NCBI GenBank assembly: GCA_017561085.1 | Contig: JAFZDQ010000060.1 | Span: 17,691-81,690 of the forward strand | DNA: 64,000 nt | Direction: 5' to 3' | From: Lachnospiraceae bacterium | GTDB lineage: Bacteria; Bacillota; Clostridia; Lachnospirales; Lachnospiraceae | Shown here: in pieces, positions 47,235 to 64,000 of the stretch | Layout of the letters: every line of letters begins with the position of its first letter | Position numbering within the stretch: position 1 is the stretch's first letter | The notes under the pieces: generated by a model | Databases searched by the model: none | Told to the model about the DNA's origin: nothing | What the model saw: only the letters and a program-made list of their open reading frames with translations | Translations under genes and position numbers: made by a program

Positions 47235-47726
<492 letters not shown>

Positions 47727-47789
47727 TTATATGGAAGCGGCGTGATGCCCCAAATGCTTTGCCCAGACTAATATTAGGAGGAACAAACC

Positions 47790-49907: not shown

Positions 49908-49910
49908 TAC

Positions 49911-49939
49911 TTGAAAATACAAAGATTTTTTACTATAAT
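49911..49939 (+). promoter_or_regulatory. Internal sigma-A promoter for tuf
   Basis: TTGAAA-N17-TATAAT directly after the fusA stop. Confidence 0.7.
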
Positions 49940-50004
49940 CATTTATAGTTGGTTAATTATCGTAACAAAAAATTTTTTATATTATTTTAAGGAGGACTTA
50001 AAAA

Positions 50005-51192
50005 ATGGCTAAAGCTAAATTTGACAGATCCAAAACCCATTGTAATATCGGTACCATCGGCCACGTTGACCATGGTAAAACAACATTAACAGCAGCAATC
50101 ACCAAGGTTCTTGCTGAAAGAGTTGCTGGTAATGAAGCTACAGACTTCGAGAACATCGATAAAGCTCCCGAAGAAAGAGAAAGAGGTATTACAATCTCTA
50201 CAGCTCACGTAGAATATTCTACAGAAAACAGACACTACGCTCACGTAGACTGTCCTGGACATGCTGACTACGTTAAGAACATGATTACCGGTGCTGCTCA
50301 GATGGACGGTGCAATCCTCGTTGTATCATCTGCTGATGGTCCTATGCCTCAGACAAGAGAACACATCCTTCTTTCCCGTCAGGTAGGTGTACCTTACATC
50401 GTAGTATTCATGAACAAGTGTGATATGGTTGATGACCCTGAACTTCTTGAATTAGTAGAAATGGAAATCACAGAACAGCTTGAAGAATATGAATTCACAG
50501 ATTGTCCTATCATAAAGGGTTCCGCTCTTAAGGCTCTTGAAGATCCTCACAGTGAATGGGGTGACAAGATCATGGAACTTATGGCTACAGTTGACGAATA
50601 TATTCCTGATCCTGAAAGACAGACAGATAAGCCTTTCCTTATGCCTGTAGAAGACGTATTCACCATCACAGGTCGTGGTACTGTTGCTACCGGTAGAGTA
50701 GAACGTGGTACACTTCATATCAACGAAGAAGTTGAAATCGTTGGTATCAAAGAAGAAACACGTAAGACTGTTGTTACAGGTATCGAAATGTTCCGTAAGC
50801 TCCTTGATGAAGCTCAGGCTGGTGATAACATCGGTGCACTTCTTCGTGGTGTTCAGAGAACAGAAATCGAAAGAGGTCAGGTTCTTTCCAAACCCGGTTC
50901 TGTAAAATGTCATACAAAATTTACAGCTCAGGTTTACGTTTTAACCAAAGATGAAGGTGGACGTCATACTCCTTTCTTCAACAACTACAGACCTCAGTTC
51001 TACTTCAGAACAACTGACGTTACTGGTGTATGTAACCTTCCTGCTGGTACAGAAATGTGCATGCCTGGTGATAACGTAGAAATGACTATCGAACTGATCC
51101 ATCCCATCGCTATGGAACAGGGTCTTACTTTCGCTATCCGTGAAGGTGGACGTACTGTAGGTTCAGGCCGTGTTGCTACAATCATCGAATAA
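50005..51192 (+). CDS. tuf: Elongation factor Tu
   Basis: [29 protein letters not shown]. Confidence 0.99.
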
Positions 51193-51224
51193 TCTTTGAT
51201 TTAGTATCATAGAAACTTAAATAC

Positions 51225-51874: not shown

Positions 51875-52013
51875 AGTAACAATATCGTTTCTGATAATAC
51901 AATAACATAAATGTTACTGTATGGCAAATGAAATATTTTTTTCGTCCACCTATTGACAGAAACGAATATGTTACTGTATAATCAAAAACACAAACAGTAA
52001 CGAAAAGGTTACT
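51875..52013. promoter_or_regulatory. Four 18-bp palindromic operators plus the xis-int promoter
   Basis: A(G/A)(T/A)AAC-N6-GTT(A/T)CT at 51875, 51901, 51958 and 51996. TTGACA (51953)-N18-TATAAT (51977). Confidence 0.8.
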
Positions 52014-52084
52014 CATAACAAAATGAGGAGGTGAATGTCATGAGCAAGTCGCATACATAAGTATAGCGGAAAGGAGGAAGGAGT

Positions 52085-52270
52085 ATGACGAAACGCTATT
52101 TATCTGCTAAGGAAGTTGCAGAACTTCTGGGAATTGCAGAATCAACCGCTTACGCAGTCATCCGGGGCTGGAATAAGGAACTTAAGAGTGAAGGATACTT
52201 CACCAAGGCAGGTTCTGTTCCCAGAGCCTACTTCGAAAAGAAGTGCTACGGATTTAGCGAAGCACAATAG
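52085..52270 (+). CDS. Excisionase-like small HTH protein
   Basis: YLSAKEVAELLGIAESTAYAVIRGWNKELKSEGYFTKAGSVPRAYF. Directly upstream of the integrase. Confidence 0.8.
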   Translation: MTKRYLSAKEVAELLGIAESTAYAVIRGWNKELKSEGYFTKAGSVPRAYFEKKCYGFSEAQ

Positions 52271-52338
52271 ATGAACTTTGATAACTGAATAGGCGTACCC
52301 GGGCAACCGGGTATGCCGCACAGGGAGAAAGAGAGGTA

Positions 52339-53472
52339 ATGATTATGCCGGTTTACAAAGATGAACAAAGAGGCACCTGGTATTTTAAATGTAACTATCG
52401 TGATTGGCAGGGTGAGATTAAGACGAAGATGAAGCGTGGATTTGCAACCAAGAAGGAAGCACAGAAGTGTGAGCGTGAATTCATTGAGATGCAGAGCGGC
52501 AATATGAATATGAAGCTAGCTAACTTCGTGGAGGTCTACTTCAATGATAAAGGAACGAGACTGAAGGAACGTTCCATCATGACGAAGCGAACCCTGATTG
52601 AAACTAAGATAATTCCTAACTTTGGAGAGAAGCCCATGAATGAGATTACGGCGGTGGATATCATCAAGTGGCAGAATATGCTGATGAATCAGGAGTATTC
52701 ACCAACGTATCTTAGGATGATACAGAACCAGCTGACGGCACTGTTTAACCACGCAGAAAGGTTTTACGATTTGCGTGATAACCCTTGTAAGAAGGTGGAT
52801 AAGATGGGCAGGTCAAACGCCAGAGAGTTAAACTTCTGGACCAAGGACGAGTATGAGGACTTTATCAAAGGCTTTGGAGCAGAAGATGAAATGTACCGGA
52901 TTATCTTCCAGATGTTATTCTGGCTGGGATGTCGAATCGGAGAGGTACTGGCACTGACAGCTTCGGATATCGACTTGGAGAATGGAACCATAAGCGTGTC
53001 CAAGACTTATTTCAGAAGAAATAAAACCGATTATATCACTTCACCGAAGACGGAAAGCTCCAATCGTAAGATTACCATCCCAAAGTTCCTTAAGGGAGAG
53101 ATAAAAGAGTATCTGGACAGGCAGTATGAGCTGGCTCCGGAGGATAGAATCTTTCCTATCACGGACAGGGCGGTGCAGAAGAAGATGAAGCAGAAGACGG
53201 AGGAGACGAAGTTAAAACCGATTCGAGTTCACGACCTCCGCCACTCGCACATCGCCTTGTTAATCGAGAAGGGGCTGCAGCCTTTGGTTATCGCACAGCG
53301 AGTGGGGCACGACTCCGTAAATACCACAATGAACATTTACGGACACCTGTATCCCAATAAGCAGAAGGAAGTGGCAGACCTGCTGAATGCCGAGGCAACT
53401 GGAGAGCTGGAAAACAATCTGGTGGATATGGCAACGGAGATGCGTTTTAGAAAGGCAGGTGGCTGGTCGTGA
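52339..53472 (+). CDS. Tyrosine recombinase/integrase with N-terminal arm-binding domain
   Basis: GCRIGEVLAL (R), HDLRH, GHDSVNTTMNIYGH (H, Y) catalytic motifs. N-terminal MKRGFATKKEA. Confidence 0.95.
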   Translation: MIMPVYKDEQRGTWYFKCNYRDWQGEIKTKMKRGFATKKEAQKCEREFIEMQSGNMNMKLANFVEVYFNDKGTRLKERSIMTKRTLIETKIIPNFGEKPMNEITAVDIIKWQNMLMNQEYSPTYLRMIQNQLTALFNHAERFYDLRDNPCKKVDKMGRSNARELNFWTKDEYEDFIKGFGAEDEMYRIIFQMLFWLGCRIGEVLALTASDIDLENGTISVSKTYFRRNKTDYITSPKTESSNRKITIPKFLKGEIKEYLDRQYELAPEDRIFPITDRAVQKKMKQKTEETKLKPIRVHDLRHSHIALLIEKGLQPLVIAQRVGHDSVNTTMNIYGHLYPNKQKEVADLLNAEATGELENNLVDMATEMRFRKAGGWS

Positions 53473-53711
53473 GAATGGTAAGAGGATTTTACAACGAGCA
53501 GAATAATACGGTGAATGTGGTTCACTACGATACCAATTATGTTATCAGTCTTGATTGTGGTAAATGGGAGCAGGGTCTTCGGACCACTCCCAACTCCCAA
53601 GGGAAGATGGATGCATTGGCTATTGAGGACCCGGTGGAGTATGTGAGGATGATGCTTAACGGGGAGATGCAGGTGTGGCTGGATGCGCTGGATGACCTGA
53701 GCGTGTGGTAG
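53469..53711 (+). CDS. Small hypothetical protein (DUF6061-like) coupled to the integrase
   Basis: Start overlaps the int stop. ISLDC...MD.LAIEDPVEYVRMMLNG pattern recalled from DUF6061 proteins found next to MobV relaxases. Confidence 0.5.
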   Translation: MRMVRGFYNEQNNTVNVVHYDTNYVISLDCGKWEQGLRTTPNSQGKMDALAIEDPVEYVRMMLNGEMQVWLDALDDLSVW

Positions 53712-53715
53712 GACG

Positions 53716-53910
53716 AAAGTGGAGCCATTTCACAAAAGGTGCTCCAAAATATGGAGTCAAAATCGAAAAGTGGCGTCAAAAAGTGGAGCACCTTTTCTGA
53801 GGAGAGAATTATCCAATATAAAAAGGTGAGTCACAATGTGGAGCCAAAATGAAGAAGTGACTCCACAAAGTGGAGCCGTTTTTCAAAAAGGGAGACGAAA
53901 GTGGCACACC
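53716..53910. repeat. Degenerate direct/inverted repeat array, core AAAGTGGAGCC
   Basis: About 9-10 copies, including a perfect 12-bp inverted pair AAAAGGTGCTCC (53734) / GGAGCACCTTTT (53785). Confidence 0.75.
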
Positions 53911-54042
53911 TGCGGATAGAGGATATCCGGTTGGTGACAAGAATAAAAATATCCTAAAGTGAGGCACCAACATACAGCTGTGAATACCGGCTACTGGCAA
54001 ATAATTTTACCAAATGCCGGTAGGAGCAGATGTATTCGAGGT

Positions 54043-54110
54043 CAAGCGACGGAACGCTTGCCCCGTTTGTGTTTGGGGTACCCCCAAACCAATAAGGGGA
54101 CATTACTTTA
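54043..54110. promoter_or_regulatory. Putative oriT upstream of the MobV relaxase
   Basis: Adjacent hairpins CAAGCG-ACGGAA-CGCTTG and GTTTGGGG-TAC-CCCCAAAC, about 120-180 bp upstream of the relaxase start. Confidence 0.45.
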
Positions 54111-54220
54111 GGGGAAGCGAAGAATATGGGGGAACCCAAAGAAAGGAGGAAGACGACCATGAGCAGAGATTTCTTAAGGAAACTTTTGATAAAACTAAAT
54201 ATAGATAAGAAGAGAGGGAT

Positions 54221-55678
54221 TTGATGACAGGTAAGAAAGAAAAGACCATCAGTGGTGCCATGTACAGCGCACCTAATCTGGAGCACAATCTTAGAACCCA
54301 CATTCCACCTAACTCCGTAGAGGAGCGGCGGCATTTAAATATGGTATATACAGATGATTGGGGGATTACCCTTCAGCAGGTATATGAAAAGTTATTTGCC
54401 GAGCATTACCGAGTGTGGAGAGAGCGGGAAATCAAGAAAGGGCGCGGAAAAAGATTTCCCCCGACCTATTATGAGAAGATTGAGCAGGATAAACAGAAAC
54501 ACCTTTGCTACGAGATTATCTGGCAGATAGGGGATATGCGGGACACGGGTTTCGTGTATACGCCGGAGGAAGCGAACCGGGCACAGGACTTGCTGGATGA
54601 ATTTGCAAAGTATCTGTTGGAACTGCCGGAGGTATGTGTGGTGACGGAAAAGGAGCTGAATGATCCGGACTGGAAGCCACCGTTTGAGGCAGGGCTGATT
54701 GTCCACCACATGGTTTATCATGGGGATGAAAATTCTCCCCACATTCACATGACCTATATTCCATACACAACCAACTCCTCAAAAGGGGCACCGGTCCAGA
54801 ATGCATTTGCACAGACCTTCAAGGATTTGGGGTATCCTACCACCATGAAGCAGGCAGTGACTGAGACCGGCGATTTGGTCTGGCAGAAGGATGAGGACGG
54901 GAGGCTTAAGCCACAGATGAAGCGTAACAGTTATGGTGGTGCTGATTGGGTGGAAACCCAGAAGGCGGTGCTTCAGGAAATGATGCTAAAAGAGTTTGGT
55001 TGGGAGCGTTTTTACAAAGGCTCCAATCCGAGAGGAAATCTTACCTTGTCGGACTACCGCAGGGAAAAGGCGGCAGAGATGGCGAAGGAAGAGGAACGGA
55101 AACTTGAGGATATTAAGGATAAGGTTGCAACCGGGCAGGCTACCATTCAGGCACAGACGGAGCAGATGGAGGCGATACTGGAGTCGCTGGATAAGGGAGC
55201 AGAAGCAGAGCGGCAGCTGTCAGTTAGGATTACTGATAAAAATGCAGAGCTGAATGAAGTGCTACAGGATTTGACGGATAAAAGCTATGAGCTGGATGAA
55301 GTGAAGCAGGACCTAACGGATAAAAAGAATGAGGTACTGGAGCAGGAGAAACAGTTAACTCTTATCAAGGCAGACGCTGACGAGACGATTCAGAAAGCAC
55401 AGTTTGCAGAAGAACTAATCGATTACTTTAGGAATACCAATTCCGGAGAACGGGAGAAGGCATACTTTGAAAAGATGTTGGACCTTAAATACGAGAATGA
55501 GTGTCTGAAGCGAGAGAATGAGGTGTTGAAAGCCGAGAACCGGACGCTGAAAGCGAAACTGGAAAAAGCATATGATTTCATGAGGCAGTTTACCATCAAT
55601 GGAATGAATATGTTGGAACACTTCCTGCGGAGTATCGGTGAGTGGGTACAGCAGAAGGTGGCTGGAATGAGTAGGTAA
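54221..55678 (+). CDS. MobV (Mob/Pre, plasmid recombination enzyme) relaxase
   Basis: N-terminal HNLR, HGDENSPHIH (HxDExxPHxH), long C-terminal coiled coil. Confidence 0.9.
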   Translation: MMTGKKEKTISGAMYSAPNLEHNLRTHIPPNSVEERRHLNMVYTDDWGITLQQVYEKLFAEHYRVWREREIKKGRGKRFPPTYYEKIEQDKQKHLCYEIIWQIGDMRDTGFVYTPEEANRAQDLLDEFAKYLLELPEVCVVTEKELNDPDWKPPFEAGLIVHHMVYHGDENSPHIHMTYIPYTTNSSKGAPVQNAFAQTFKDLGYPTTMKQAVTETGDLVWQKDEDGRLKPQMKRNSYGGADWVETQKAVLQEMMLKEFGWERFYKGSNPRGNLTLSDYRREKAAEMAKEEERKLEDIKDKVATGQATIQAQTEQMEAILESLDKGAEAERQLSVRITDKNAELNEVLQDLTDKSYELDEVKQDLTDKKNEVLEQEKQLTLIKADADETIQKAQFAEELIDYFRNTNSGEREKAYFEKMLDLKYENECLKRENEVLKAENRTLKAKLEKAYDFMRQFTINGMNMLEHFLRSIGEWVQQKVAGMSR

Positions 55679-55694
55679 AATGAGTAAGCAAACA

Positions 55695-55722
55695 GGAGGG
55701 GTGCGAAAGCACCTCTTCTTTT
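55695..55722 (+). terminator. Intrinsic terminator after the relaxase
   Basis: GGAGGGGTGC-GAAA-GCACCTCTTC-TTTT. Confidence 0.75.
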
Positions 55723-55846
55723 ATCTGGTGTAAGACTAAAATAAAAGGAATTTTTTATGGGAACGAGATATGATTTCAAATCTAGTTGTGGTAAAATTTA
55801 TAATAGTAGTTGTTAATTGGATTAATATATGGGGAGATGTTTACAT

Positions 55847-56854
55847 ATGAAAATTGAGATGGGAGAATCTTTATTTTATTCATGGCTTAGGCATGTCAAA
55901 GAATGTCAGATTGTGCAAACAAACTGGAAGGTTTCAGGTAGATGGGAAATGCTGCATGAGAAAGAAATTCAAGATTTGATGAGTCGTATAGATGAGCATT
56001 TTTCCAATAATTACAGTTATAATATTTTCAAGAAGAATGCCTCTGTATATCAGATTATTCAGCAAGCAGAGTGTGATGTGTTGGGCGTGTCTTTTAGTGG
56101 AAATGAAAAGCAGTTTTATGCAGTGGATGTTGCTTTTCATGAAGCGGGTCTTAATTATGGAACAAGAGAAGAGACTGTTATGAAGGTGATTGCAAAAAGT
56201 GTACGTACGGCTATTTGTTTGTATGGATATATGGATACCAAAGGAGCGGAAATTATTTTTGCATCGCCTAAGATTAATCAAGCTATTCTTGATGATTTAG
56301 TGCCGTGTATTAATGATTTGAATAACTTGTTTCGGATATATGGGTATGAGTTCGCTGTACGCGTGATTGCGAATGAACAGTTTAATGAATCGGTATTACA
56401 GCCTATTTTGTTAGCGAGCGGTGGAATTGCAGATACATCTGAGTTGTTTATTCGTGCATATCAGATGTATGGAATGTTTGAGAATACAACTGAATCGAAA
56501 AAGTCATCAGTACGTGTAAATAAAGCGGACATTCCGAAATATAGTGCGCAAATTCGAAGTGAGCTAAAAATAGGTAAGCTTGTTCAGTTGGTTCTTCGTC
56601 CTTTGTTACAAAGTGATAATGTAAGTGAGGAAGAAATTAATTTGTTACAAGAGAAAGAATACTGTAAAAAGCATTTTGATATTCAGTATCCGCTACTATT
56701 AAAAACAACAGCAGAAGAAAAGGAATTACACTATTATAAAGAACGATTTTATATTAAAGGGGAAAGCTATAGGTTATGTTGTGAATGGTTTGAAAAAGAA
56801 GCAAATAATGACAGACCTTATTTGGAAAAATGGATAGCTGAACATAATGAATAA
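55847..56854 (+). CDS. Hypothetical protein with restriction-endonuclease-like N-terminus and a separate C-terminal domain
   Basis: GESLFYSWLRH...ECDVLG...YAVDVAFHEAGLNY resembles a PD-(D/E)xK-type core. C-terminal KIGKLVQ...YYKERF.IKGESY.LCCEW domain. Confidence 0.55.
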   Translation: MKIEMGESLFYSWLRHVKECQIVQTNWKVSGRWEMLHEKEIQDLMSRIDEHFSNNYSYNIFKKNASVYQIIQQAECDVLGVSFSGNEKQFYAVDVAFHEAGLNYGTREETVMKVIAKSVRTAICLYGYMDTKGAEIIFASPKINQAILDDLVPCINDLNNLFRIYGYEFAVRVIANEQFNESVLQPILLASGGIADTSELFIRAYQMYGMFENTTESKKSSVRVNKADIPKYSAQIRSELKIGKLVQLVLRPLLQSDNVSEEEINLLQEKEYCKKHFDIQYPLLLKTTAEEKELHYYKERFYIKGESYRLCCEWFEKEANNDRPYLEKWIAEHNE

Positions 56855-56896
56855 AACTAGAAGGAGTGCGAACGTACTCCTTCTTCGTCTTTTGAT

Positions 56897-57061
56897 AGTA
56901 TGTTGGAAAAGTGCGTTGGAAAAATATGTTTTATGTTGGAAATTCCAACATAGATTGTGAAAGTATGTTGGTATTTCCGGGTGGGCGGGGAATTGGGGGA
57001 TAAGGTATCGGGGAAAGTATGTAGGAAAAGTATGTCGGAAATGCGGGAGGTGTGTTGGAAA
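56897..57061. repeat. Degenerate repeat array, core TATGTTGGAAA, with a 21-bp palindrome
   Basis: About 8 copies. TATGTTGGAA-A-TTCCAACATA at 56932-56952. Confidence 0.7.
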
Positions 57062-57102
57062 GTAAGATGTGGGATATGCAATATTATTATCTGAGAAAAT
57101 CG

Positions 57103-57140
57103 TTGATTGGGTGAGATATAAATGCTATAATAATGCTATA
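57103..57140 (+). promoter_or_regulatory. Sigma-A promoter of the HTH-MTase-REase operon with overlapping direct repeat
   Basis: TTGATT-N17-TATAAT with extended TG. AATGCTATA repeated at 57121 and 57132. Confidence 0.65.
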
Positions 57141-57163
57141 TTTATGAGATGAGGAGAATGCAT

Positions 57164-57379
57164 ATGAAGTTTGCAGATGAAATTAAAGATTTACGTCGAA
57201 AATGTTTGTTGAGTCAGACTGATTTTGCTAGAGAAATAGGGGTTTCTTTTTCTACTGTGAATAGGTGGGAAACAGGAAAATCTAAGCCAAATTATAAAGC
57301 ATTAAAAAGACTAGATGAATATTGCAAAAAGAATTCTATTAATTTTGTATGTTCAGAATTGATACAGGAGGATGAATAA
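57164..57379 (+). CDS. XRE HTH protein, putative R-M controller
   Basis: IKDLRRKCLLSQTDFAREIGVSFSTVNRWETGKSKP. Stop overlaps the MTase start. Confidence 0.8.
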   Translation: MKFADEIKDLRRKCLLSQTDFAREIGVSFSTVNRWETGKSKPNYKALKRLDEYCKKNSINFVCSELIQEDE

Positions 57380-58551
57380 TGGCTTATACACATATAGATT
57401 GTTTTAGTGGTCCGGGTGGGATTTGTACAGGAATGCATGCAGCAGGATTTGATACAAAAGTTGCAATTGAATATATAAAAAGTTGTGTAGATACATATAA
57501 GGCAAATCACCCGGAGGTTCACGTAATTCATTCAGATATAAGAAATGTTACAGCAGAACAAATTTTGCCGTATATTCCGGCGGACGGTGTGGATTTAGTT
57601 ACTTCTGGGATGCCGTGTGAAACTTTTTCTACAGCAGGAAATACATCAAGATCATTTTATGATGATAGACAGTTCCTTTTTAGAGAGGGGATAAGAATCG
57701 CACAGATAGCAAAAGCAAAAATGATATTATTCGAAAATGTGCCGGCAATTGTCACAAAAACAGTTGAAAAGAATGATCCAACATTGATCGTAGACGTACT
57801 GAAATATGAGTTAAAAGAGGCGGGCTACGAGAATATGGTTCAAGTGGTTTTGGATGCTTCTCAATTTGGTGTCCCTCAACGAAGAAAGAGATTTTTTATA
57901 TTAGCAACAAAGGACAAAAAAATAAATCTATCTGTACCGGAAGTGATATCTGATAAGATTGTGACAGTGGATGAAGCTTTTATTGATTTATTGAATGTTA
58001 TTCCAAATAGTGAAAAGGCAAAAGATAAATATGGAAAGAAGAGTAGTGATTATTCTAAGTTGATGAGAAACGATGAGTTCTGGAAACGTCAAGAACATCA
58101 TACTGATAAACTTACATATCAACATCCGATGAGACATCGTGATTGTACATTGGAAAGATTTTCTTTGTTGAAGCAGGGGGAAAGCTTGAAAGATTTATTT
58201 GATAGATATCAAGGAAAAGAGAGAGAAAAGCTTCAAGAAAGACGCGTGTTGCCAAAAAAAATGTTTATTAAGCGTAATTATCGATTAGTTGGAAAGGATG
58301 CAGCACCTACGGTCACATCGCACTGTTTAGATGAATTTGTGCATCCGAAGTATGACAGAGCTCTTACAGTTAGAGAGTGTGCAAGACTTCAAAGTTTTCC
58401 GGACAGTTATGATTTTTGTGGTGGACCATATTTAACACCACACTTACATAATGATATTCAAGATAAGTATGAGCAAATTGGAGATGCCGTTCCACCTTTG
58501 TTGGCGTACGCATGGGGAATAAAAATATCTGAGCTTTTAGGAGGAAAATAA
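57379..58551 (+). CDS. C5-cytosine DNA methyltransferase
   Basis: Motif I FSGPGG, IV GMPCETFS, VI ENV, VIII QRRKRFF, IX RALTVRECARLQSFPD, X QIGDAVPP. Confidence 0.95.
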   Translation: MAYTHIDCFSGPGGICTGMHAAGFDTKVAIEYIKSCVDTYKANHPEVHVIHSDIRNVTAEQILPYIPADGVDLVTSGMPCETFSTAGNTSRSFYDDRQFLFREGIRIAQIAKAKMILFENVPAIVTKTVEKNDPTLIVDVLKYELKEAGYENMVQVVLDASQFGVPQRRKRFFILATKDKKINLSVPEVISDKIVTVDEAFIDLLNVIPNSEKAKDKYGKKSSDYSKLMRNDEFWKRQEHHTDKLTYQHPMRHRDCTLERFSLLKQGESLKDLFDRYQGKEREKLQERRVLPKKMFIKRNYRLVGKDAAPTVTSHCLDEFVHPKYDRALTVRECARLQSFPDSYDFCGGPYLTPHLHNDIQDKYEQIGDAVPPLLAYAWGIKISELLGGK

Positions 58552-58553
58552 AT

Positions 58554-59420
58554 ATGCCTTATAGAGAAGCTGTTGAACAACGTTATAATGAAGTGTTTGA
58601 AAACGAGTATGCAATTTTATTGAATGGAAGAACTTCAAATAGCGCGATGGAAAGTGCTGAAAGAGGTGCTCAACATAGTGCAATGTTAATCACGTTTACA
58701 GAGATGTATGAACTGTATCGCGAAAATGTGAATGCTACAAAAATATGGAATGCCATATATTCATCACACTTGAAGAGAAAAACAGGCGACTTTTCGGCGG
58801 ATAACCTTAATGAAGAAATTATTGAGAAGGTTTTGTCAGGTGCACAAAGTTGGAAGAAATGTAGCGGACATGTATTTGAACATTACATTGTCGAACAGAC
58901 AAGGGAACGTTTAGCACAATATAATATACGATTTGTTCTCCAAAAAGAATTAACAACAATGCTTCAAAATAATCAGATCGCTAATGAAGATGATGATAAT
59001 ATTCGGCAGATGGCAGCAAGCGATGATTTTGATATTTATGCTATTGTGAATGTTAATGGTAGTAATTTGGTTTTTGGATGTGTTCAGGCAAAAACGAGTA
59101 TTCGGGATAGGGTTGGAAGAGATAGAGATTTTTCTATCCCGGCTATGGAAAGACATTTTTGGTCTGTTGCAGTTGTACTAGATGGAACATATTTAGCAAT
59201 GCCTAAATTTAATAAAATGGTAAATGGTGGTGGAGAAACTCAGTATATGGAGAATGGATGGCATGGAATGTATTCAATGTCAAATATTGATACTTCCGAT
59301 AGAATATATAAGGATGAGGATCTTGAATTGCTTATTGAACATGCAAGTACGGCATCGCATAAATTTACATCTGCACGACAAAGATTTGATCGGTATTGGC
59401 GTGCAGTACAAAATGATTAA
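58554..59420 (+). CDS. Type II restriction endonuclease, CCGG family (BsaWI/Ecl18kI-like)
   Basis: QSWKKCSGHVFE, DFDIY, QAKTSIRDR (K-x3-R-D/E-R motif), VVLDG. Begins 2 bp after the MTase. Confidence 0.8.
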   Translation: MPYREAVEQRYNEVFENEYAILLNGRTSNSAMESAERGAQHSAMLITFTEMYELYRENVNATKIWNAIYSSHLKRKTGDFSADNLNEEIIEKVLSGAQSWKKCSGHVFEHYIVEQTRERLAQYNIRFVLQKELTTMLQNNQIANEDDDNIRQMAASDDFDIYAIVNVNGSNLVFGCVQAKTSIRDRVGRDRDFSIPAMERHFWSVAVVLDGTYLAMPKFNKMVNGGGETQYMENGWHGMYSMSNIDTSDRIYKDEDLELLIEHASTASHKFTSARQRFDRYWRAVQND

Positions 59421-59452
59421 TAAGGATAAAATTATACAGGAGGAATATTTTT

Positions 59453-60616
59453 ATGGATATTTGGTATGATATAGAGGACTATGAAAAAGAAGAGGATGAG
59501 ATTGAAATTAAAGAATATGATATAACGTCAACGCCTAATGATTACAATATTGCAACATTATTCAATTTAATTGATAACGGAATAATTAAGATGCCTCCCT
59601 TTCAGAGAAATTATGTATGGGATGTAAAAAGAGCATCTAAGCTAATAGAATCTATTATTTTAGGATTACCAATTCCACAGGTCTTTTTGTATGAAAGAGG
59701 AAAAAATAATTTTTATGTGATAGATGGTCAGCAAAGATTATTGACTATATATTTTTTTGTTAAACAAAGATTTCCCAATAAAGCAGGTCGAGATATTTTA
59801 AGAGATTATTTAACGGGAGAAGAAAAAATTAATGCAGATGTTTTAGCACAAGATAAATATTTTTCTAATTTTTCTCTTAAGTTAACGAGTCCAGTACCTA
59901 CAGAAACTAATAAGTTTAACAATTTAAAATATGAAACGTTGGGAGATTATAAACATATATTTGACTATCTCCGAACAATAAGAACTGTTGTAATAAAACA
60001 AAATGAACCGGATGATCAAGATTCATCAATGTATGAGATATTTAATAGATTAAATACCGGAGGACAAAATCTTACGCAACAGGAAATTCGCATGAGCTTA
60101 TTCTATTCAGATTTTTATGCAATGGTTTTAAAACTTAATAAAAATGAAAAGTGGAGACAAATATTAGGACAGGAAACTGCAGATGTACATTTTAAAGACT
60201 TGGAGATTATAGTAAGAAGTTTTGCCATGTTATTCTATCATGAAAAGTATCAGGCAACGATGAACAGATTCTTGAATAAATTTTCGAAGATGACAAACAG
60301 ATTTGAAAAAGAAGATGTAGATTATTTAGAACAAGTTTTCCTGAAATTTATTGAAAGTTGTTCAGATTTAAAAGAAAAGAGTTTTTGTTCTGCAAGTGGA
60401 AAATTTAGTATATCTTTTTTTGAATCTGTTTTTGTTGCAACATGTGAAAATTCTTTTAAGAGCAAGCTATTTGTAGAAGGTAAGATAACACAAGAAAGCC
60501 TTGAAGCATTAAAGTCAGATGTTGAATATATAAATGCATGTAAAGAAAGTATGAGTTCAAAAAAGAATGTAGAAACAAGAATGTCGAGAGCTAAAGAAAT
60601 TATTAAGTTACAGTAA
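59453..60616 (+). CDS. DUF262 (ParB/Srx-fold, GmrS-like) domain protein
   Basis: PPFQRNYVW, IESIILGLPIP, VIDGQQRLLTI, IFNRLNTGG motifs. Confidence 0.9.
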   Translation: MDIWYDIEDYEKEEDEIEIKEYDITSTPNDYNIATLFNLIDNGIIKMPPFQRNYVWDVKRASKLIESIILGLPIPQVFLYERGKNNFYVIDGQQRLLTIYFFVKQRFPNKAGRDILRDYLTGEEKINADVLAQDKYFSNFSLKLTSPVPTETNKFNNLKYETLGDYKHIFDYLRTIRTVVIKQNEPDDQDSSMYEIFNRLNTGGQNLTQQEIRMSLFYSDFYAMVLKLNKNEKWRQILGQETADVHFKDLEIIVRSFAMLFYHEKYQATMNRFLNKFSKMTNRFEKEDVDYLEQVFLKFIESCSDLKEKSFCSASGKFSISFFESVFVATCENSFKSKLFVEGKITQESLEALKSDVEYINACKESMSSKKNVETRMSRAKEIIKLQ

Positions 60617-60627
60617 GGAGAAAGTAA

Positions 60628-61143
60628 ATGTATACTCCTATAAATGGATTTGTAGAAGATTATCATGAGTTAAAGGGATATTTGCTTGAAAATGGGCAAA
60701 TATCTCTAGAGAATAATGTCGAGAATCATTTGAAAAAAGTAATGTTGCTTTCCTGTGCTAGCTATTATGAAACCCAAATACAAGAAATTATTAAAAATTT
60801 TGTTCAAAGAAATTCTTCAGATGATAAGGTTAGTAATTTTGTTCTGAAAAAAGCTATTTCGAGGCAGTATCATACATATTTTACATGGGATGGAAATAAT
60901 GTTAATAGTTTTTTGGGATTGTTTGGTGAAGAGTTTAAGAAAGAAGTTTCGATGACAATATCAAAAGATGAAGCATTAAAAGAACAAATGAGAGCATTTC
61001 TGCAGTTAGGAAATGAACGCAATAAAATGGTCCATGAGAATTTTTTAGTATATAATTTGGAGAAGACATTCGATGAAATAATACAACTTAATGAGAAAGC
61101 AGAGAAATTTGTGGTTTTCTTAAGGAAAGAGTTTGAGAAATGA
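60628..61143 (+). CDS. HEPN-domain protein (putative RNase)
   Basis: All-helical 171 aa, with LLSCASYYE and RNKMVH (R-x4-H). Confidence 0.8.
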   Translation: MYTPINGFVEDYHELKGYLLENGQISLENNVENHLKKVMLLSCASYYETQIQEIIKNFVQRNSSDDKVSNFVLKKAISRQYHTYFTWDGNNVNSFLGLFGEEFKKEVSMTISKDEALKEQMRAFLQLGNERNKMVHENFLVYNLEKTFDEIIQLNEKAEKFVVFLRKEFEK

Positions 61144-61173: not shown

Positions 61174-62733
61174 ATGTTGCAATTTAATGCGGAAAGCGAG
61201 ATGATTAAATTGGCAAATGTATTTGACCTTTCACAATTTGATGAATACAGAGAAGACAACAGAAGAGAAGTGAAAAAAGCAGATGGTGGTTTGCCTGTTT
61301 CTTTGTGGGACACCTATTCTTCTTTTGCAAACTGCTATGGTGGAGTTATCATTCTTGGTGTCAAAGAAAATAAAGATGGTAGTTGGAGAACTACCGGTCT
61401 CCAGAATGCATCCAAGCTTTGCAAGGAATTTTGGGATAATATGAATAATCCTAAGAAGGTAAATATTAATCTATTGTCAGAAGATGATGTGCAGACCTAT
61501 GAAGTAGGTGACAATAAGGATGTTATTATGGTTATTTATGTGCCTATGGCAAAGCGTGAGCAGAAGCCAGTGTACATCAATAATGATATTTTTAATGGCA
61601 CTTTTCGCCGTAATTATGAGGGTGATTATCATTGTACCAGATTACAGGTAAAGACCATGCTTCGTGACCAGACTGAGCGTACTATGGATATGGAAGTGCT
61701 TGATAAGGTTCCGATGGAAGATTTGAATTACGATACCATACATGGATACCGTAACAGTCACCGTTCTTTAAAAGAGGGACATCCTTTTGAGCGCCTGAAC
61801 GACCACGAGTATCTGAGAAGCATTGGTGCGGCGGCTATTTCTGATGAGGATGGAAAGTTGCATCCTACGGCAGCAGGTATGCTGATGTTTGGGGATGAGT
61901 ACAACATTGTGCGACACTTCCCTGAGTATTTCTTGGACTACAGAGAAGAGTTGGATCCTACCACTCGTTGGAGCGACCGTTTGCAATCAAGTTCCGGTGA
62001 ATGGTCCGGAAATGTGTGCGACTTCTATTTTAGAGTTTATAACAAAATTATCAAAGACATTAAGGTGCCGTTCAAAATGGTCGGTGGTGAACGTGTTGAT
62101 GATACTCCGGTACACAAGGCACTTCGTGAGGCTTTGGCAAATTGTTTGATTAATGCCGATTATCACGGATTGCGAGGTGTTGTTATCCGTAAAGAACCGG
62201 ACAAGCTGGTTTTAGCAAATCCCGGTTATGTCAGAACGGGTAAAAAGCAGATGCGTCTTGGTGGTGAATCCGATCCCCGAAACAAGGCTCTTATGAAAAT
62301 GTTTAATCTTATCAATATCGGTGAACGTGCCGGAAGTGGTGTTCCGAATATCTTTAATGTTTGGGCAGACGAAGGCTGGGAAGAACCGATGATAGAGGAG
62401 AGATTTGACCCGGATAGAACGGTACTGTCGCTTTCGTTTTTGAAAAAAGTGTCGGAAAAAAGTGGCGAAAAAAAAGTGGCGAAAAAAAGTGGCGAAAAAA
62501 AAGTGGCGAAAAAAAGTGGCGAAAAAAAAGTGACGAAAAAAACGCAAGAAAAGTACGATGCAATTTTGAATTCTATGCAGCCTGATATGTGGTATAAGGC
62601 TTCTGAATTTGAAACTGTTGCTGGTGTTAAAGAGTCAAGAATTAAAGTGTTGCTTAAGGATATGTTGGAGCAAGGCTTGATTGAAAGTACTGGTAGTACT
62701 AAGGGGAAGATGTATAAGAAAACTAACCTGTAA
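61174..62733 (+). CDS. Schlafen/AlbA_2 + GHKL-like (HATPase_c_4) + winged-HTH protein; start may be 61201
   Basis: EDNRREVK (E-x4-E-x-K), SSFANCYGGVIILGV, ALREALANCLINADY, RNKALMKMF..IGERAGSGVP, C-terminal wHTH. Confidence 0.85.
   Translation: MLQFNAESEMIKLANVFDLSQFDEYREDNRREVKKADGGLPVSLWDTYSSFANCYGGVIILGVKENKDGSWRTTGLQNASKLCKEFWDNMNNPKKVNINLLSEDDVQTYEVGDNKDVIMVIYVPMAKREQKPVYINNDIFNGTFRRNYEGDYHCTRLQVKTMLRDQTERTMDMEVLDKVPMEDLNYDTIHGYRNSHRSLKEGHPFERLNDHEYLRSIGAAAISDEDGKLHPTAAGMLMFGDEYNIVRHFPEYFLDYREELDPTTRWSDRLQSSSGEWSGNVCDFYFRVYNKIIKDIKVPFKMVGGERVDDTPVHKALREALANCLINADYHGLRGVVIRKEPDKLVLANPGYVRTGKKQMRLGGESDPRNKALMKMFNLINIGERAGSGVPNIFNVWADEGWEEPMIEERFDPDRTVLSLSFLKKVSEKSGEKKVAKKSGEKKVAKKSGEKKVTKKTQEKYDAILNSMQPDMWYKASEFETVAGVKESRIKVLLKDMLEQGLIESTGSTKGKMYKKTNL
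62443..62542 (+). repeat. In-frame tandem repeat GTGGCG(A7/A8), 27-bp period encoding KKSGEKKVA
   Basis: Five GTGGCG plus GTGACG and GTGTCGG. A8 and A7 tracts alternate across the GTGGCG/GTGACG run. Confidence 0.92.
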
Positions 62734-62751
62734 GTTGGAGATGAATGAAAA

Positions 62752-63606
62752 ATGGGAATTCTTAATGAGGAACAACGTAGAAAATATGTTGAATTGCTTA
62801 AGATAAATGATATTGATAAAATTAAACAGTTTTTAATGGATAACGTTGAAGAGGGGACATTGATATATAAGTATTGTCGTGGATTAGTAAGGGATTTTAA
62901 TACCCTAAAAGAGGAAAAAATCTTTTTGTCTAATGCATACAATTTCAATGACCCATTTGATTGCGCATACTTGGTTAACAAAAGGAGTAAAAGAGCGTAT
63001 TCAGAGGATGAAAGAGAGCTTGCGTTTCATGAATATCTGGAACAGGAAAAAGCAGATCAAGAATCAAAAAGAAGAACCAATGCAACATTTGTAGCTTGTT
63101 TTTCGGAACGGTGTGATTCTAGTGCTATGTGGGGGTATTATTCGGCAGATCATAAGGGGATGTGTATAGGATATGATTTGCGTGAATTAATTGATAAGTT
63201 TGGAATAATGCCTGTTATATATTCTGAGGATTTGCCTTTGCTTGAAGATGTTGAAGGGGAGCCCTTATATATATCGTTAGTTACAAAATCTGATGAGTGG
63301 AAACACGAAATGGAATGGAGAATTGTAAAATATGATAAAGGCAAAGAAGGTGCACCGGGAGTAAAAGTGGAAGAGATTTTACCTAAAGAAATTATTATAG
63401 GTAGCAAAGAAAAAGAGACATGTAAATTGAATGCAATTAGTAGAAAAAACAATGTAAAGTCTGACTTGTTATATTGTGACGTTGCACAATTGATTGACTG
63501 GGGGCGTCGAATAAAAAGTAGGAATAGAATCAGGATATATAGTTATGATTTGAGTCGTAGTAGTTATTCCATGATAAAAAAAGAATGGAAGGGTATCTAT
63601 ACATAA
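62752..63606 (+). CDS. DUF2971 domain protein
   Basis: IYKY, FNDPFDC, VACFSE...MWGYYSADHKGMCIGYD, KSDEWKHEMEWRI. Confidence 0.85.
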   Translation: MGILNEEQRRKYVELLKINDIDKIKQFLMDNVEEGTLIYKYCRGLVRDFNTLKEEKIFLSNAYNFNDPFDCAYLVNKRSKRAYSEDERELAFHEYLEQEKADQESKRRTNATFVACFSERCDSSAMWGYYSADHKGMCIGYDLRELIDKFGIMPVIYSEDLPLLEDVEGEPLYISLVTKSDEWKHEMEWRIVKYDKGKEGAPGVKVEEILPKEIIIGSKEKETCKLNAISRKNNVKSDLLYCDVAQLIDWGRRIKSRNRIRIYSYDLSRSSYSMIKKEWKGIYT

Positions 63607-63742
63607 AAGGTAAGTCATGAAGGAGTATGTTTTCTTTTTGTAAATTCAATCTTAGATTATGCTAAAATGGCATTGAAAGTACTGGTAGTACGGAGGGAAA
63701 GAAGAATAAGAAAATATAAAAATGAAGAAGGGTGCGAATATT

Positions 63743-64000
63743 ATGGTGAAAAGTTCAATATTGGATGAGCTGGTAAAAGCAAATAGAATGCCTGTATTAT
63801 TTGTTGGTTCGGGGATTTCTAAAAGGTATTTATTTGGTTATCCATCATGGGAAGAGTTGCTTGAGAAATCTTTTGAGAAATTCGAAACGGATCCGTTTCA
63901 GTATCAAAAGCATCTGGATGAGTGTAGACGTAAGAAGATGTCTGATTTTGACATGAATGTATACATGGGAACTTTAATTGAAGAGCAATTTAACGCTGCT
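63743..64000 (+). CDS. SIR2-like (NADase family) protein, N-terminal 86 codons, truncated by the window end
   Basis: MVKSSILDELVKANRMPVLFVGSGISKRYLFGYPSWEELL has the FVG(S/A)GxS and PxW motifs of SIR2 domains. Confidence 0.8.
   Translation, partial: MVKSSILDELVKANRMPVLFVGSGISKRYLFGYPSWEELLEKSFEKFETDPFQYQKHLDECRRKKMSDFDMNVYMGTLIEEQFNAA

What the first reader, a model, noticed from the sequence alone, without database searches (positions are those of the whole stretch)
59453..61143. DUF262 + HEPN gene pair embedded in a Type II R-M operon: candidate guard / abortive-infection module
Seen: the DUF262 gene starts 32 bp after the REase, and the HEPN gene (RNKMVH) starts 11 bp after DUF262, with no terminator-like hairpin that I could see. 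Established: DUF262 is the ParB/Srx-fold nucleotide-binding domain of GmrSD and SspE. HEPN R-x4-6-H domains are RNases, and PrrC/RloC couple an NTPase to a HEPN anticodon nuclease to back up R-M systems. Inference: this split ParB-NTPase/HEPN pair may be a second-line defence triggered by phage anti-restriction or by modified DNA. This DUF262 protein lacks any recognisable HNH/DUF1524 nuclease, so the adjacent HEPN gene is the natural effector.
Basis: partly seen in the sequence, partly recalled or inferred. Interest (0 to 1): 0.68.

Follow-up and report, generated by a model that had tools for sequence, protein, structure and literature searches.

The report
PD-T4-2-like DUF262–HEPN defence pair
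The two genes are real and form a tightly coupled pair, a DNA-sensing ParB-like NTPase and a HEPN RNase, of the same kind as PD-T4-2, an E. coli anti-phage system already validated by experiment; here the pair sits at the tail of a restriction-modification operon, so it is a divergent member of a known kind.

Summary
A 387-aa DUF262/GmrSD_N protein (DGQQR) starts 32 bp after a BsaWI-like REase. A 171-aa HEPN_RiboL-PSP protein (RNKMVH) starts 11 bp later. Both genes have Shine-Dalgarno sites, and no terminator-like site lies between them.

The pair matches an already described system. PD-T4-2 (Vassallo 2022) is exactly "DUF262 + HEPN (PF18735)", and cloned alone it protects E. coli against T4. 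The window's A protein hits PADLOC PD-T4-2_A (8e-40) and is 27% identical to canonical A. Its B protein is in the same Pfam family but is only weakly similar to canonical B.

The pair is an autonomous, widespread module. In 76 of 80 loci from many phyla, including archaea, plasmids and a phage, the DUF262 gene lies directly upstream of the HEPN gene, and both catalytic motifs are kept in all 74 full-length pairs. Canonical PD-T4-2 and most relatives have no R-M nearby.

In the window's own gut/rumen clade, however, 16 of 21 contexts place the pair just downstream of at least six unrelated R-M types. That suggests layered defence or operon hitch-hiking. It does not fit a PrrC-style physical guard.

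Verdict: new member of a known kind, with modest interest.

The parts
57103..57131 (+). Promoter-like site (TTGATT-17-TATAAT with TG) ahead of the C gene. It is the likely start of the operon that carries the pair.
   Evidence: consensus match only
57149..57379 (+). HTH_3 controller (C) protein of the R-M system. This is context, not part of the pair.
   Evidence: Pfam HTH_3 1.3e-13. PADLOC Control_protein 1e-3. 89% identical in L084 and 55% in L099.
57379..58551 (+). C5 cytosine DNA methyltransferase (Type II). Context.
   Evidence: Pfam DNA_methylase 1.2e-60. PADLOC MTase_II 1.4e-105.
58554..59420 (+). BsaWI-like Type II restriction endonuclease. Context.
   Evidence: Pfam RE_BsaWI 1.1e-09. 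PADLOC REase_II 4.1e-67. Only 41% identical in L084, although the pair is 92-95% identical there.
59438..59443 (+). Shine-Dalgarno AGGAGG, 9 nt before the DUF262 start codon
   Evidence: sequence
59453..60616 (+). Gene A: a ParB/Srx-fold DUF262 (GmrSD_N) NTPase domain followed by a helical NsnA-type C-terminal (ParBDB-like) domain. No nuclease domain. Predicted sensor/regulator.
   Evidence: Pfam GmrSD_N 1.3e-32. PADLOC NsnA 1.1e-59 end to end and PD-T4-2_A 8.3e-40. AF2 pLDDT 86. Foldseek best matches are BrxU (probability 0.99), SspE, ParB-CDP and sulfiredoxin. 27% identical to canonical PD-T4-2A, E 2e-26.
59723..59737 (+). DGQQR NTP-binding/hydrolysis motif (residues 91-95)
   Evidence: Invariant in A3. 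Present in 74/74 partner proteins.
60616..60620 (+). Shine-Dalgarno AGGAG overlapping the stop codon of gene A, 7 nt before the HEPN start codon
   Evidence: sequence
60628..61143 (+). Gene B: small all-helical HEPN protein of the RiboL-PSP family. Predicted RNase effector.
   Evidence: Pfam HEPN_RiboL-PSP 2.1e-19. PADLOC PD-T4-2_B 1.2e-4. AF2 pLDDT 88, seven helices. 231 homologues, all about 170 aa and all PF18735.
61018..61035 (+). HEPN R-x4-H motif RNKMVH (R131...H136)
   Evidence: R131, N132 and H136 invariant. R-[polar]-x3-H present in 74/74. Aligns with RN..H of the canonical PD-T4-2B profile.

Best explanation
The pair is a divergent member of the PD-T4-2 class of two-gene anti-phage systems.

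Gene A encodes a ParB/Srx-fold DUF262 NTPase joined to an NsnA-type helical DNA-binding domain. It has no nuclease domain.

Gene B encodes a 171-aa HEPN RNase of the RiboL-PSP family with an intact RN-x3-H site.

Shown here:
- the domain architecture
- conservation of both catalytic motifs
- near-obligate adjacency and tight, probably translational, coupling of A and B across phyla
- co-divergence of the two proteins
- horizontal mobility of the pair
- its frequent occurrence without any R-M

Taken from the literature: a system with the same architecture (PD-T4-2) protects E. coli against T4 when cloned alone and when present in its native strain.

Inferred:
- A and B form a complex in which the RNase is held inactive.
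- A senses phage nucleic acid through its ParB-DUF262 and C-terminal DNA-binding domains and uses NTP binding or hydrolysis as a switch. The signal may be DNA with modified cytosines, as for GmrSD, BrxU and SspE.
- Activation releases or licenses the HEPN RNase to cut tRNA, rRNA or mRNA, which stops translation and aborts the infection.

In this window the pair is the distal part of a C-protein/M/R Type II operon, inside a low-G+C defence array next to integrase and relaxase genes downstream of tuf. It is probably co-transcribed with the R-M system. It would act as an independent second layer against phages that restriction does not stop. It is probably not a guard that physically monitors the R-M enzymes.
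For: Architecture and families.

Same composition as PD-T4-2:
- Table S1/S2 lists "DUF262, HEPN".
- HHpred gives PD-T4-2A as PF03235 at 99.7% and PD-T4-2B as PF18735 at 97.8%.
- Deleting the system in ECOR65 restores T4 plaquing, and it also protects E. coli K-12.

Canonical copy in E. coli 2009C-3133: PADLOC A 2e-162 and B 8e-64. It lies in a P4-like satellite with no R-M nearby.

Comparison with the canonical proteins:
- Window A against canonical A: 27% identity, E 2e-26.
- B profile against B profile: collinear over 121 columns with the RN..H motifs aligned, E 0.0017.

Conserved pairing:
- 76 of 80 loci have a DUF262 gene immediately upstream on the same strand, with a median gap of about 5 nt.
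- DGQQR is present in 74/74 and R-x4-H in 74/74.
- Pairwise distances of A and B correlate, r=0.71, Mantel p=0.001.

Fold of A: ParB/Srx NTP-binding fold, closest to BrxU, SspE and ParB-CDP, with no nuclease domain.

Autonomy and mobility:
- A 3.9-kb E. coli plasmid carries little besides the pair. IncX1 plasmids, an Exiguobacterium plasmid and Akkermansia phage Chambord also carry it.
- No close homologue in 36 other species of the genus: 33 have none, and 3 have only a DUF262 paralog at 27-30% identity.
- G+C is 27-29%, against 35% in the R-M genes and 40-48% in the tuf region.
Against: - No experiment exists for this subfamily.
- The window's B protein is not detectable against canonical PD-T4-2B by BLASTP. 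It is only weakly similar by PADLOC HMM (1.2e-4) and by hhalign (probability 15%). The effector may therefore be an independently recruited RiboL-PSP HEPN and not an ortholog.
- Foldseek found no significant solved-structure match for the B model.
- The mechanism of PD-T4-2 itself is unpublished in the library searched. The sensor/effector roles, complex formation, trigger and RNA target are all inference.
- Canonical A has DGLQR, not DGQQR.
- Strong clustering of R-M linkage in the window's clade leaves room for some functional tie to R-M.
Confidence: 0.75

Rival explanations
1. R-M guard. The pair monitors the adjacent R-M system and fires the HEPN RNase when a phage anti-restriction factor disables restriction. 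This would be analogous to PrrC with EcoprrI.
For: - In the window's gut/rumen clades, 16 of 21 informative contexts have an R-M or DNA MTase directly upstream on the same strand, against 3 of 50 in the large environmental clade. The label needs 10 changes on the tree, against a shuffled mean of 17.1 (0 of 500 shuffles as low) (contexts).
- The arrangement C-M-R-DUF262-HEPN recurs with a 55%-identical C protein but unrelated M and R genes.
- There is no terminator between the R gene and the pair.
Against: - PD-T4-2 works when cloned alone.
- The canonical copy, the E. coli plasmid copies and most relatives lack any R-M.
- Pairs that are 71-95% identical follow at least three unrelated R-M types: C5/BsaWI-like, PstI-like and Type IIG fused enzymes. 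A physical guard could hardly bind all of these.
- Between the window and L084 the REase is 41% identical while the pair is 92-95% identical. The pair has therefore not co-evolved with the R-M system.
- Embedding of independent defence genes inside other defence operons is a known general pattern.
- Enrichment in gut Bacillota may only reflect dense R-M-rich islands there. No control gene family was tested.
Confidence: 0.1
2. Toxin-antitoxin-like addiction module. The HEPN protein is a toxin and the DUF262 protein neutralises it. The main role would be to stabilise the mobile element or plasmid, or the linked R-M cassette, with phage defence secondary or absent.
For: - The gene order (putative neutraliser first, small toxin second), the tight coupling and gaps from about -17 to +37 nt resemble type II TA operons.
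- The pair is almost the only cargo of a 3.9-kb E. coli plasmid and sits next to rep on IncX1 plasmids.
- It lies on integrative elements here and elsewhere.
- HEPN toxins of HEPN-MNT systems are established TA toxins (general knowledge; cited).
Against: - A 387-aa two-domain NTPase with an invariant catalytic DGQQR motif (74/74) is far more than a simple antitoxin needs.
- The homologous architecture has demonstrated anti-phage activity, including in its native strain.
- Many copies lie in stable chromosomal sites between housekeeping genes.
Confidence: 0.1
3. Incomplete Menshen (NsnABC) or a degenerate GmrSD-type Type IV restriction enzyme. The DUF262 gene would be a remnant of a larger known system, and the HEPN gene an unrelated neighbour.
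For: The best PADLOC hit of protein A is NsnA, 1.1e-59 end to end. The DUF262 domain is shared with GmrSD, BrxU and SspE.
Against: - There is no NsnB ABC-ATPase, NsnC or DUF1524/HNH anywhere in the array.
- The NsnA model also outscores PD-T4-2_A on the E. coli plasmid proteins that have HEPN partners. It scores 1e-58 even on canonical PD-T4-2A. It is therefore a generic ParB-DUF262+ParBDB model.
- The HEPN partner is conserved next to A in 76 of 80 loci.
Confidence: 0.03

Closest known systems
PD-T4-2 (Vassallo et al. 2022, E. coli ECOR65; PADLOC PD-T4-2_A/B; copy examined here: E. coli 2009C-3133, NZ_CP013025 3553868-3555503)
   Same: - A two-gene cassette, A then B, a few nt apart.
- A is DUF262 without DUF1524, with an NsnA-like C-terminal domain.
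- B is a HEPN protein of about 170 aa in Pfam RiboL-PSP, with an RN-x3-H motif.
- It is carried on mobile elements.
- The A proteins are clearly homologous (27% identity, E 2e-26; PADLOC 8e-40).
   Different: - The B proteins are very distant: no BLASTP hit, PADLOC 1.2e-4, hhalign E 0.0017.
- Window A has DGQQR where canonical A has DGLQR.
- The host is a gut Lachnospiraceae-like Bacillota, not E. coli.
- The pair sits at the 3' end of a Type II R-M operon, whereas the canonical copy lies in the P4-satellite hotspot with no R-M.
- This subfamily is untested, and PADLOC at usual thresholds would probably not call it.
Menshen (NsnABC; Millman 2022; Nucleic Acids Res 2025, PMC12065111)
   Same: The sensor protein has the same architecture, ParB-DUF262 plus a ParBDB DNA-binding domain (PADLOC NsnA 1.1e-59). 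The predicted logic is also the same: a DNA sensor leading to an RNase effector.
   Different: There is no NsnB ABC-ATPase transducer and no NsnC inPIN-nuclease effector. Here a small HEPN RNase follows the sensor directly.
GmrSD / BrxU / SspE (DUF262-DUF1524 enzymes that depend on DNA modification)
   Same: The N-terminal ParB/Srx-fold DUF262 NTPase domain with DGQQR. BrxU and SspE are the best structural matches. BrxU also provides a precedent for a DUF262 protein embedded in another defence system (BREX), where it adds a complementary layer.
   Different: There is no HNH/DUF1524 DNase. The effector is a separate RNase, so the outcome is expected to be RNA cleavage or growth arrest and not DNA restriction.
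PrrC / RloC anticodon nucleases
   Same: An NTPase is coupled to a HEPN-type RNase, the genes are linked to an R-M locus, and the role is a second line of defence.
   Different: In PrrC the NTPase is an ABC ATPase fused to the nuclease in one polypeptide, and PrrC is physically held by a Type Ic R-M enzyme. Here the NTPase has a ParB/Srx fold and is a separate protein. The R-M linkage is facultative and involves unrelated R-M types.

Membership tests
PD-T4-2 | Two adjacent co-directional genes, the DUF262 gene first and the small HEPN gene second, tightly coupled | tested here: met
   The gap is 11 bp and the Shine-Dalgarno site overlaps the stop of A. The canonical gap is 4 nt. The same order is found in 76 of 80 relatives.
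PD-T4-2 | Protein A is homologous to PD-T4-2A: DUF262 without DUF1524 | tested here: met
   PADLOC PD-T4-2_A 8.3e-40. BLASTP against canonical A gives 27% identity over 301 aa, E 2e-26. Pfam finds GmrSD_N only. There is no nuclease fold.
PD-T4-2 | Protein B is homologous to PD-T4-2B: a RiboL-PSP-type HEPN with R-x4-H | tested here: inconclusive
   Both proteins fall in PF18735: the window's at 2.1e-19, canonical B by HHpred at 97.8%. Direct tests are weak: PADLOC PD-T4-2_B 1.2e-4, no BLASTP hit, and hhalign of profile against profile E 0.0017, probability 15%, with the RN..H motifs in register.
PD-T4-2 | Confers phage resistance on its own | not testable with these tools
   Shown only for the E. 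coli ECOR65 system.
Menshen (NsnABC) | NsnA-type sensor (ParB-DUF262 + ParBDB) | tested here: met
   PADLOC NsnA 1.1e-59, residues 8-385 on profile positions 25-380 of 385.
Menshen (NsnABC) | An adjacent NsnB ABC-ATPase and an NsnC effector | tested here: not met
   No gene of the array gives an NsnB/NsnC or AAA_15/DUF3696 hit. The next genes are the HEPN gene and then a Schlafen-AlbA_2/HATPase_c_4 gene.
GmrSD/BrxU/SspE (Type IV-like) | A DUF262 domain fused to a DUF1524 His-Me/HNH nuclease | tested here: not met
   Pfam finds only GmrSD_N at residues 33-217. The C-terminal half is helical. Structural matches are limited to the ParB/Srx part.
PrrC/RloC | An ABC-type ATPase fused to the anticodon nuclease domain in one polypeptide | tested here: not met
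   The NTPase has a ParB/Srx fold and is a separate protein.
PrrC/RloC | Obligate embedding in, and dependence on, a Type I R-M locus | tested here: not met
   The R-M system here is Type II. Roughly 70-75% of the contexts scored across all clades have no R-M nearby (19 of 74 informative rows have one upstream).
HEPN-MNT toxin-antitoxin | A minimal nucleotidyltransferase (MNT) antitoxin partner | tested here: not met
   The partner is DUF262, and there is no NTP_transf hit.

The most novel reading that the evidence does not exclude
In the gut/rumen clade that holds this window, the DUF262-HEPN pair may have become a dedicated distal cistron of R-M operons. Different R-M cassettes would be swapped in between a conserved C-protein gene or promoter and the conserved pair. 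The ParB-DUF262 sensor would respond to what restriction leaves behind or cannot cut, such as hypermodified phage DNA, restriction-generated DNA ends or DNA-mimic anti-restriction proteins. The RNase would then fire only when the first layer fails. That would be a generic R-M backup that does not depend on the R-M type, not a stand-alone system.
Probability: 0.12. Interest if true: 0.6.

Novelty: new member of a known kind. Interest (0 to 1): 0.3.

Why it matters
The pair adds a Gram-positive gut-anaerobe branch to the PD-T4-2 class, a validated anti-phage system whose mechanism is still unsolved. This branch is probably missed by PADLOC-type annotation.

The family is large. The partly pattern-limited scan found it in at least 158 species genomes, and it also occurs in archaea, on plasmids and in a phage. 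Both catalytic motifs are invariant, which makes the family a good subject for working out how a ParB-like NTP switch controls a HEPN RNase without an ATPase transducer.

The lineage-specific habit of sitting behind interchangeable R-M cassettes is a tidy example of defence genes embedded in other defence operons. It offers a simple test of synergy against independence. It is not a new principle.

Tried and rejected
- The genome search with PADLOC PD-T4-2_B over 41 relatives found nothing, not even in the window's own genome. A 20-bit hit falls below the per-genome threshold, so the result is uninformative.
- Foldseek of the HEPN model against the PDB gave no significant match. Helical bundles dominated, and one HEPN entry appeared at E 7.4.
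- A sequence-profile search of A1 against PDB chains returned only a spurious designed protein.
- BLASTP of window B against canonical PD-T4-2B and against the IncX1-plasmid B protein found no alignment.
- Menshen and GmrSD membership were considered and rejected because the defining partners or domains are absent.
- The downstream Schlafen/HATPase_c_4 gene was considered as a third component. It was rejected because it follows the pair only in the window and in L084.
- DARNA (bioRxiv 2026) was checked as a possible renaming of PD-T4-2. It is PD-T7-3.
- I could not find in the text whether PD-T4-2 acts by abortive infection or by direct immunity. That information is only in a figure.
- The R-M labels on the tree rest on phmmer, a motif regex and partial Pfam scans. 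A few MTases may have been missed.
- No control gene family was used to set the background rate of R-M adjacency in gut Bacillota.
Full report
**Observation.** The finding's coordinates are exact. On the + strand lie these genes:
- an HTH controller gene (57149-57379)
- a C5-MTase gene (57379-58551)
- a REase gene (58554-59420)
- a 387-aa gene (59453-60616)
- a 171-aa gene (60628-61143)

The two gaps are 32 and 11 bp. AGGAGG lies 9 nt before the first start codon. AGGAG overlaps the stop of the first gene and lies 7 nt before the second start.

The consensus scan finds no terminator-like site on the + strand between 56884 and 62331. The best promoter-like site is at 57103-57131, ahead of the C gene.

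Pfam assigns GmrSD_N/DUF262 (1.3e-32, residues 33-217, nothing else) to the first protein. It assigns HEPN_RiboL-PSP (2.1e-19) to the second. The neighbours are DNA_methylase (1.2e-60) and RE_BsaWI (1.1e-09). PADLOC gives REase_II 4e-67 and MTase_II 1e-105.

G+C falls to 27-29% across the pair. It is about 35% in the R-M genes and 40-48% in the tuf region.

**What it matches.** PADLOC matches protein A to NsnA (1.1e-59, end to end) and to PD-T4-2_A (8.3e-40). It matches protein B to PD-T4-2_B (1.2e-4).

PD-T4-2 is listed by Vassallo et al. 2022 as "DUF262, HEPN", a two-gene system from ECOR65. HHpred gives A as PF03235 (99.7%) and B as PF18735 HEPN_RiboL-PSP (97.8%). The system protects E. coli K-12 when cloned, and deleting it in ECOR65 restores T4 plaquing.

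Reviews list PD-T4-2 with Menshen and Dazbog as DUF262 systems that lack DUF1524. The 2013 HEPN survey already recorded "Ribo L-PSP-HEPN ... operon with ParB".

**Comparison with a canonical copy.** It scores PADLOC A 2e-162 and B 8e-64. It sits between psu/delta-type genes and the integrase of a P4-like satellite at ssrA, with no R-M nearby.
- Window A is 27% identical to canonical A (E 2e-26). The canonical motif is DGLQR.
- Window B gives no BLASTP hit to canonical B.
- Profiles of the two B families align over 121 columns with the RN..H motifs in register, but only at E 0.0017 and probability 15%.

The architecture and protein A therefore meet the membership test. Protein B shares the Pfam family, but its orthology is unproven.

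**Is the pair a unit?** The HEPN protein has 231 homologues, all about 170 aa and all PF18735. R131, N132 and H136 are invariant.

A scan of one genome per species returned 158 confirmed loci, of which 80 were kept. They come from Bacillota, Cyanobacteriota, Chloroflexota, Actinomycetota, Pseudomonadota, Bacteroidota, Nitrospirota, Planctomycetota and methanogen/ANME archaea.
- In 76 of the 80 loci, a DUF262 homologue of 380-450 aa lies directly upstream on the same strand, with a median gap of about 5 nt.
- One exception is at a contig end. Three are orphan HEPN genes.
- DGQQR and R-[polar]-x3-H are each present in 74/74 pairs.
- Pairwise distances of A and B correlate (r=0.71, Mantel p=0.001).

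The same Pfam pair also occurs elsewhere:
- on a 3.9-kb E. coli plasmid that carries little else
- on IncX1 plasmids of E. coli and Salmonella
- on an Exiguobacterium plasmid
- in Akkermansia phage Chambord

Within the window's own genus the pair is rare. Of 36 other species, 33 have no DUF262 homologue at E≤1e-20, and three have only a paralog at 27-30% identity. The pair is an autonomous, horizontally mobile module.

**Structure.** The AF2 model of A (pLDDT 86) has an α/β N-terminal domain and a helical C-terminal half. Its best solved-structure matches are BrxU (probability 0.99), SspE, CDP-bound ParB, Noc and sulfiredoxin. No nuclease fold appears.

A also matches the NsnA model end to end. 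The NsnA C-terminal domain, "ParBDB", is described as a DNA-binding domain homologous to the SspE middle domain.

The model of B (pLDDT 88) is an all-helical bundle. It has no significant Foldseek match in the PDB. Its HEPN assignment therefore rests on the Pfam hit and the invariant motif.

Across all 76 paired loci, only about 16 have a putative DNA MTase within 5 kb. Pfam scans of the two genes on either side give mostly housekeeping families plus a minority of MTases, Vsr and ResIII.

Close relatives tell a different story:
- L084 (pair 92-95% identical) has C-M-R-pair-Schlafen after tuf.
- L085-L087 have M-R-pair in a different chromosomal site, with a decayed C gene.
- L112 has M-R(BsaWI-like)-Vsr-pair.
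- L099/L004 have a 55%-identical C gene, then an unrelated 733-aa C5-MTase and an unrelated 412-aa gene, then the pair.
- L001 has a PstI-like R-M system.
- L111 has a Type IIG fused enzyme after tuf.
- L094 has a Type IIG enzyme and a TIR gene.
- L002 and L011 have N6_N4 MTases.
- L005 has a C5-MTase and Vsr.
- L089, L115, L003, L006 and L008 have none.

On a DUF262 tree, the label "R-M upstream" needs 10 changes, against a shuffled mean of 17.1 (0 of 500 shuffles as low). The gut/rumen clades score 16 of 21. The 59-row environmental clade scores 3 of 50.

Between the window and L084, DNA similarity resumes at 59070, inside the 3' part of the REase gene, and runs through the pair into the Schlafen gene at 86%. 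The REase protein is only 41% identical and the MTase 76%. The R-M core is evidently being exchanged next to a stable pair.

**Interpretation.** A PrrC-like physical guard is hard to reconcile with three facts:
1. PD-T4-2 works alone.
2. Most relatives lack R-M.
3. Near-identical pairs sit behind at least three structurally unrelated R-M types within the window's own five-member clade, and at least six types across the gut clades.

The pattern fits what Payne et al. (bioRxiv 2024) describe as independent defence genes embedded in other defence operons. It also fits the BrxU/BREX precedent of complementary layers.

The most likely reading is an autonomous sensor-effector pair that in this lineage uses the R-M operon's transcription and travels with it. 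A looser functional synergy is not excluded, for example coverage of phages with hypermodified cytosines that Type II enzymes cannot cut. I give an R-M-coupled backup role about 0.1.

One caveat applies. I did not measure how often other defence genes in gut Bacillota lie behind R-M systems, so the enrichment may be ecological.

**Context.** The window's array lies downstream of rpsG-fusA-tuf (47616-51195), as in L084 and L111. Relative to L084, the window has an extra block of about 5 kb (52000-57096) with excisionase-like, integrase, relaxase-like and unknown genes.

Downstream of the pair, on the same strand with short gaps, come three further genes:
- a Schlafen-AlbA_2/HATPase_c_4 gene
- a DUF2971 gene (PADLOC candidate PDC-S31)
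- the start of a PDC-S25/SIR2-like gene

**Verdict.** The pair is a divergent, untested member of the PD-T4-2 class, so it is a new member of a known kind.

Earlier notes of this scan reached the same reading for many other windows. That is agreement between similar agents, not independent evidence. Interest is modest (0.3). The value lies in the conserved, motif-intact family and in the R-M-tail arrangement as a test case for layered defence.

Noticed in passing
window 58529-59070 compared with L084 and L085: Between the window and its closest relatives, nucleotide similarity is lost exactly over the 5' two-thirds of the REase gene. The REase is 41% identical at the protein level and the MTase 76%, while the flanks are 86-92% identical. 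This looks like allelic replacement of the R-M specificity core between conserved flanks (C gene on one side; REase 3' end plus DUF262 on the other).
   Followed up: partly
window 52000-57096: A block of about 5 kb is present here but absent from the otherwise syntenic L084 island after tuf. It holds an excisionase-like HTH gene (52085-52270), a tyrosine integrase gene (52339-53472), a Mob/relaxase-like coiled-coil gene (54221-55678) and a 341-aa ORF with no family hit (55829-56854). The block has terminator-like hairpins at 55694-55719 and 56859-56884.
   Followed up: partly
window 61174-64000: Three further defence-like genes follow the pair on the same strand with gaps of 30, 18 and 115 bp: a Schlafen-AlbA_2 + HATPase_c_4 + wHTH gene (519 aa), a DUF2971 gene (PADLOC candidate PDC-S31, 1e-35), and the N-terminus of a PDC-S25/SIR2-like protein that is cut by the window end.
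   Followed up: no
L085 3377-3902: In the M-R-DUF262-HEPN cassette of L085-L087, the space ahead of the MTase gene translates to a C-protein-like sequence broken by stop codons. It appears to be a decayed controller gene.
   Followed up: no
L009 4143-4652; L014 8019-8504; L065 5695-6234: Three loci carry an orphan HEPN_RiboL-PSP gene of this subfamily, with no DUF262 homologue detectable by tblastn anywhere in the locus. L065 contains a masked run of N.
   Followed up: partly
L110 6869-8504 (E. coli 2009C-3133, NZ_CP013025 3553868-3555503): Canonical PD-T4-2 sits in the cargo slot of a P4-like satellite, between psu/delta-like genes and the integrase at ssrA. Its DUF262 motif reads DGLQR, not DGQQR.
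   Followed up: partly
L094-L098 3973-4662: In one mobilisable element, a CAP12-PCTIR_TIR gene lies between a 1052-aa Type IIG R-M enzyme and the DUF262-HEPN pair. The result is a compact array of three systems next to relaxase and serine recombinase genes.
   Followed up: no
L006 2954-3700: In a Desulfovibrionaceae locus, the gene directly upstream of the pair is a Hypoth_Ymh protein (Pfam 1.9e-17). The 2013 survey counts that family among HEPN domains, so two HEPN-type genes flank one DUF262 gene there.
   Followed up: no
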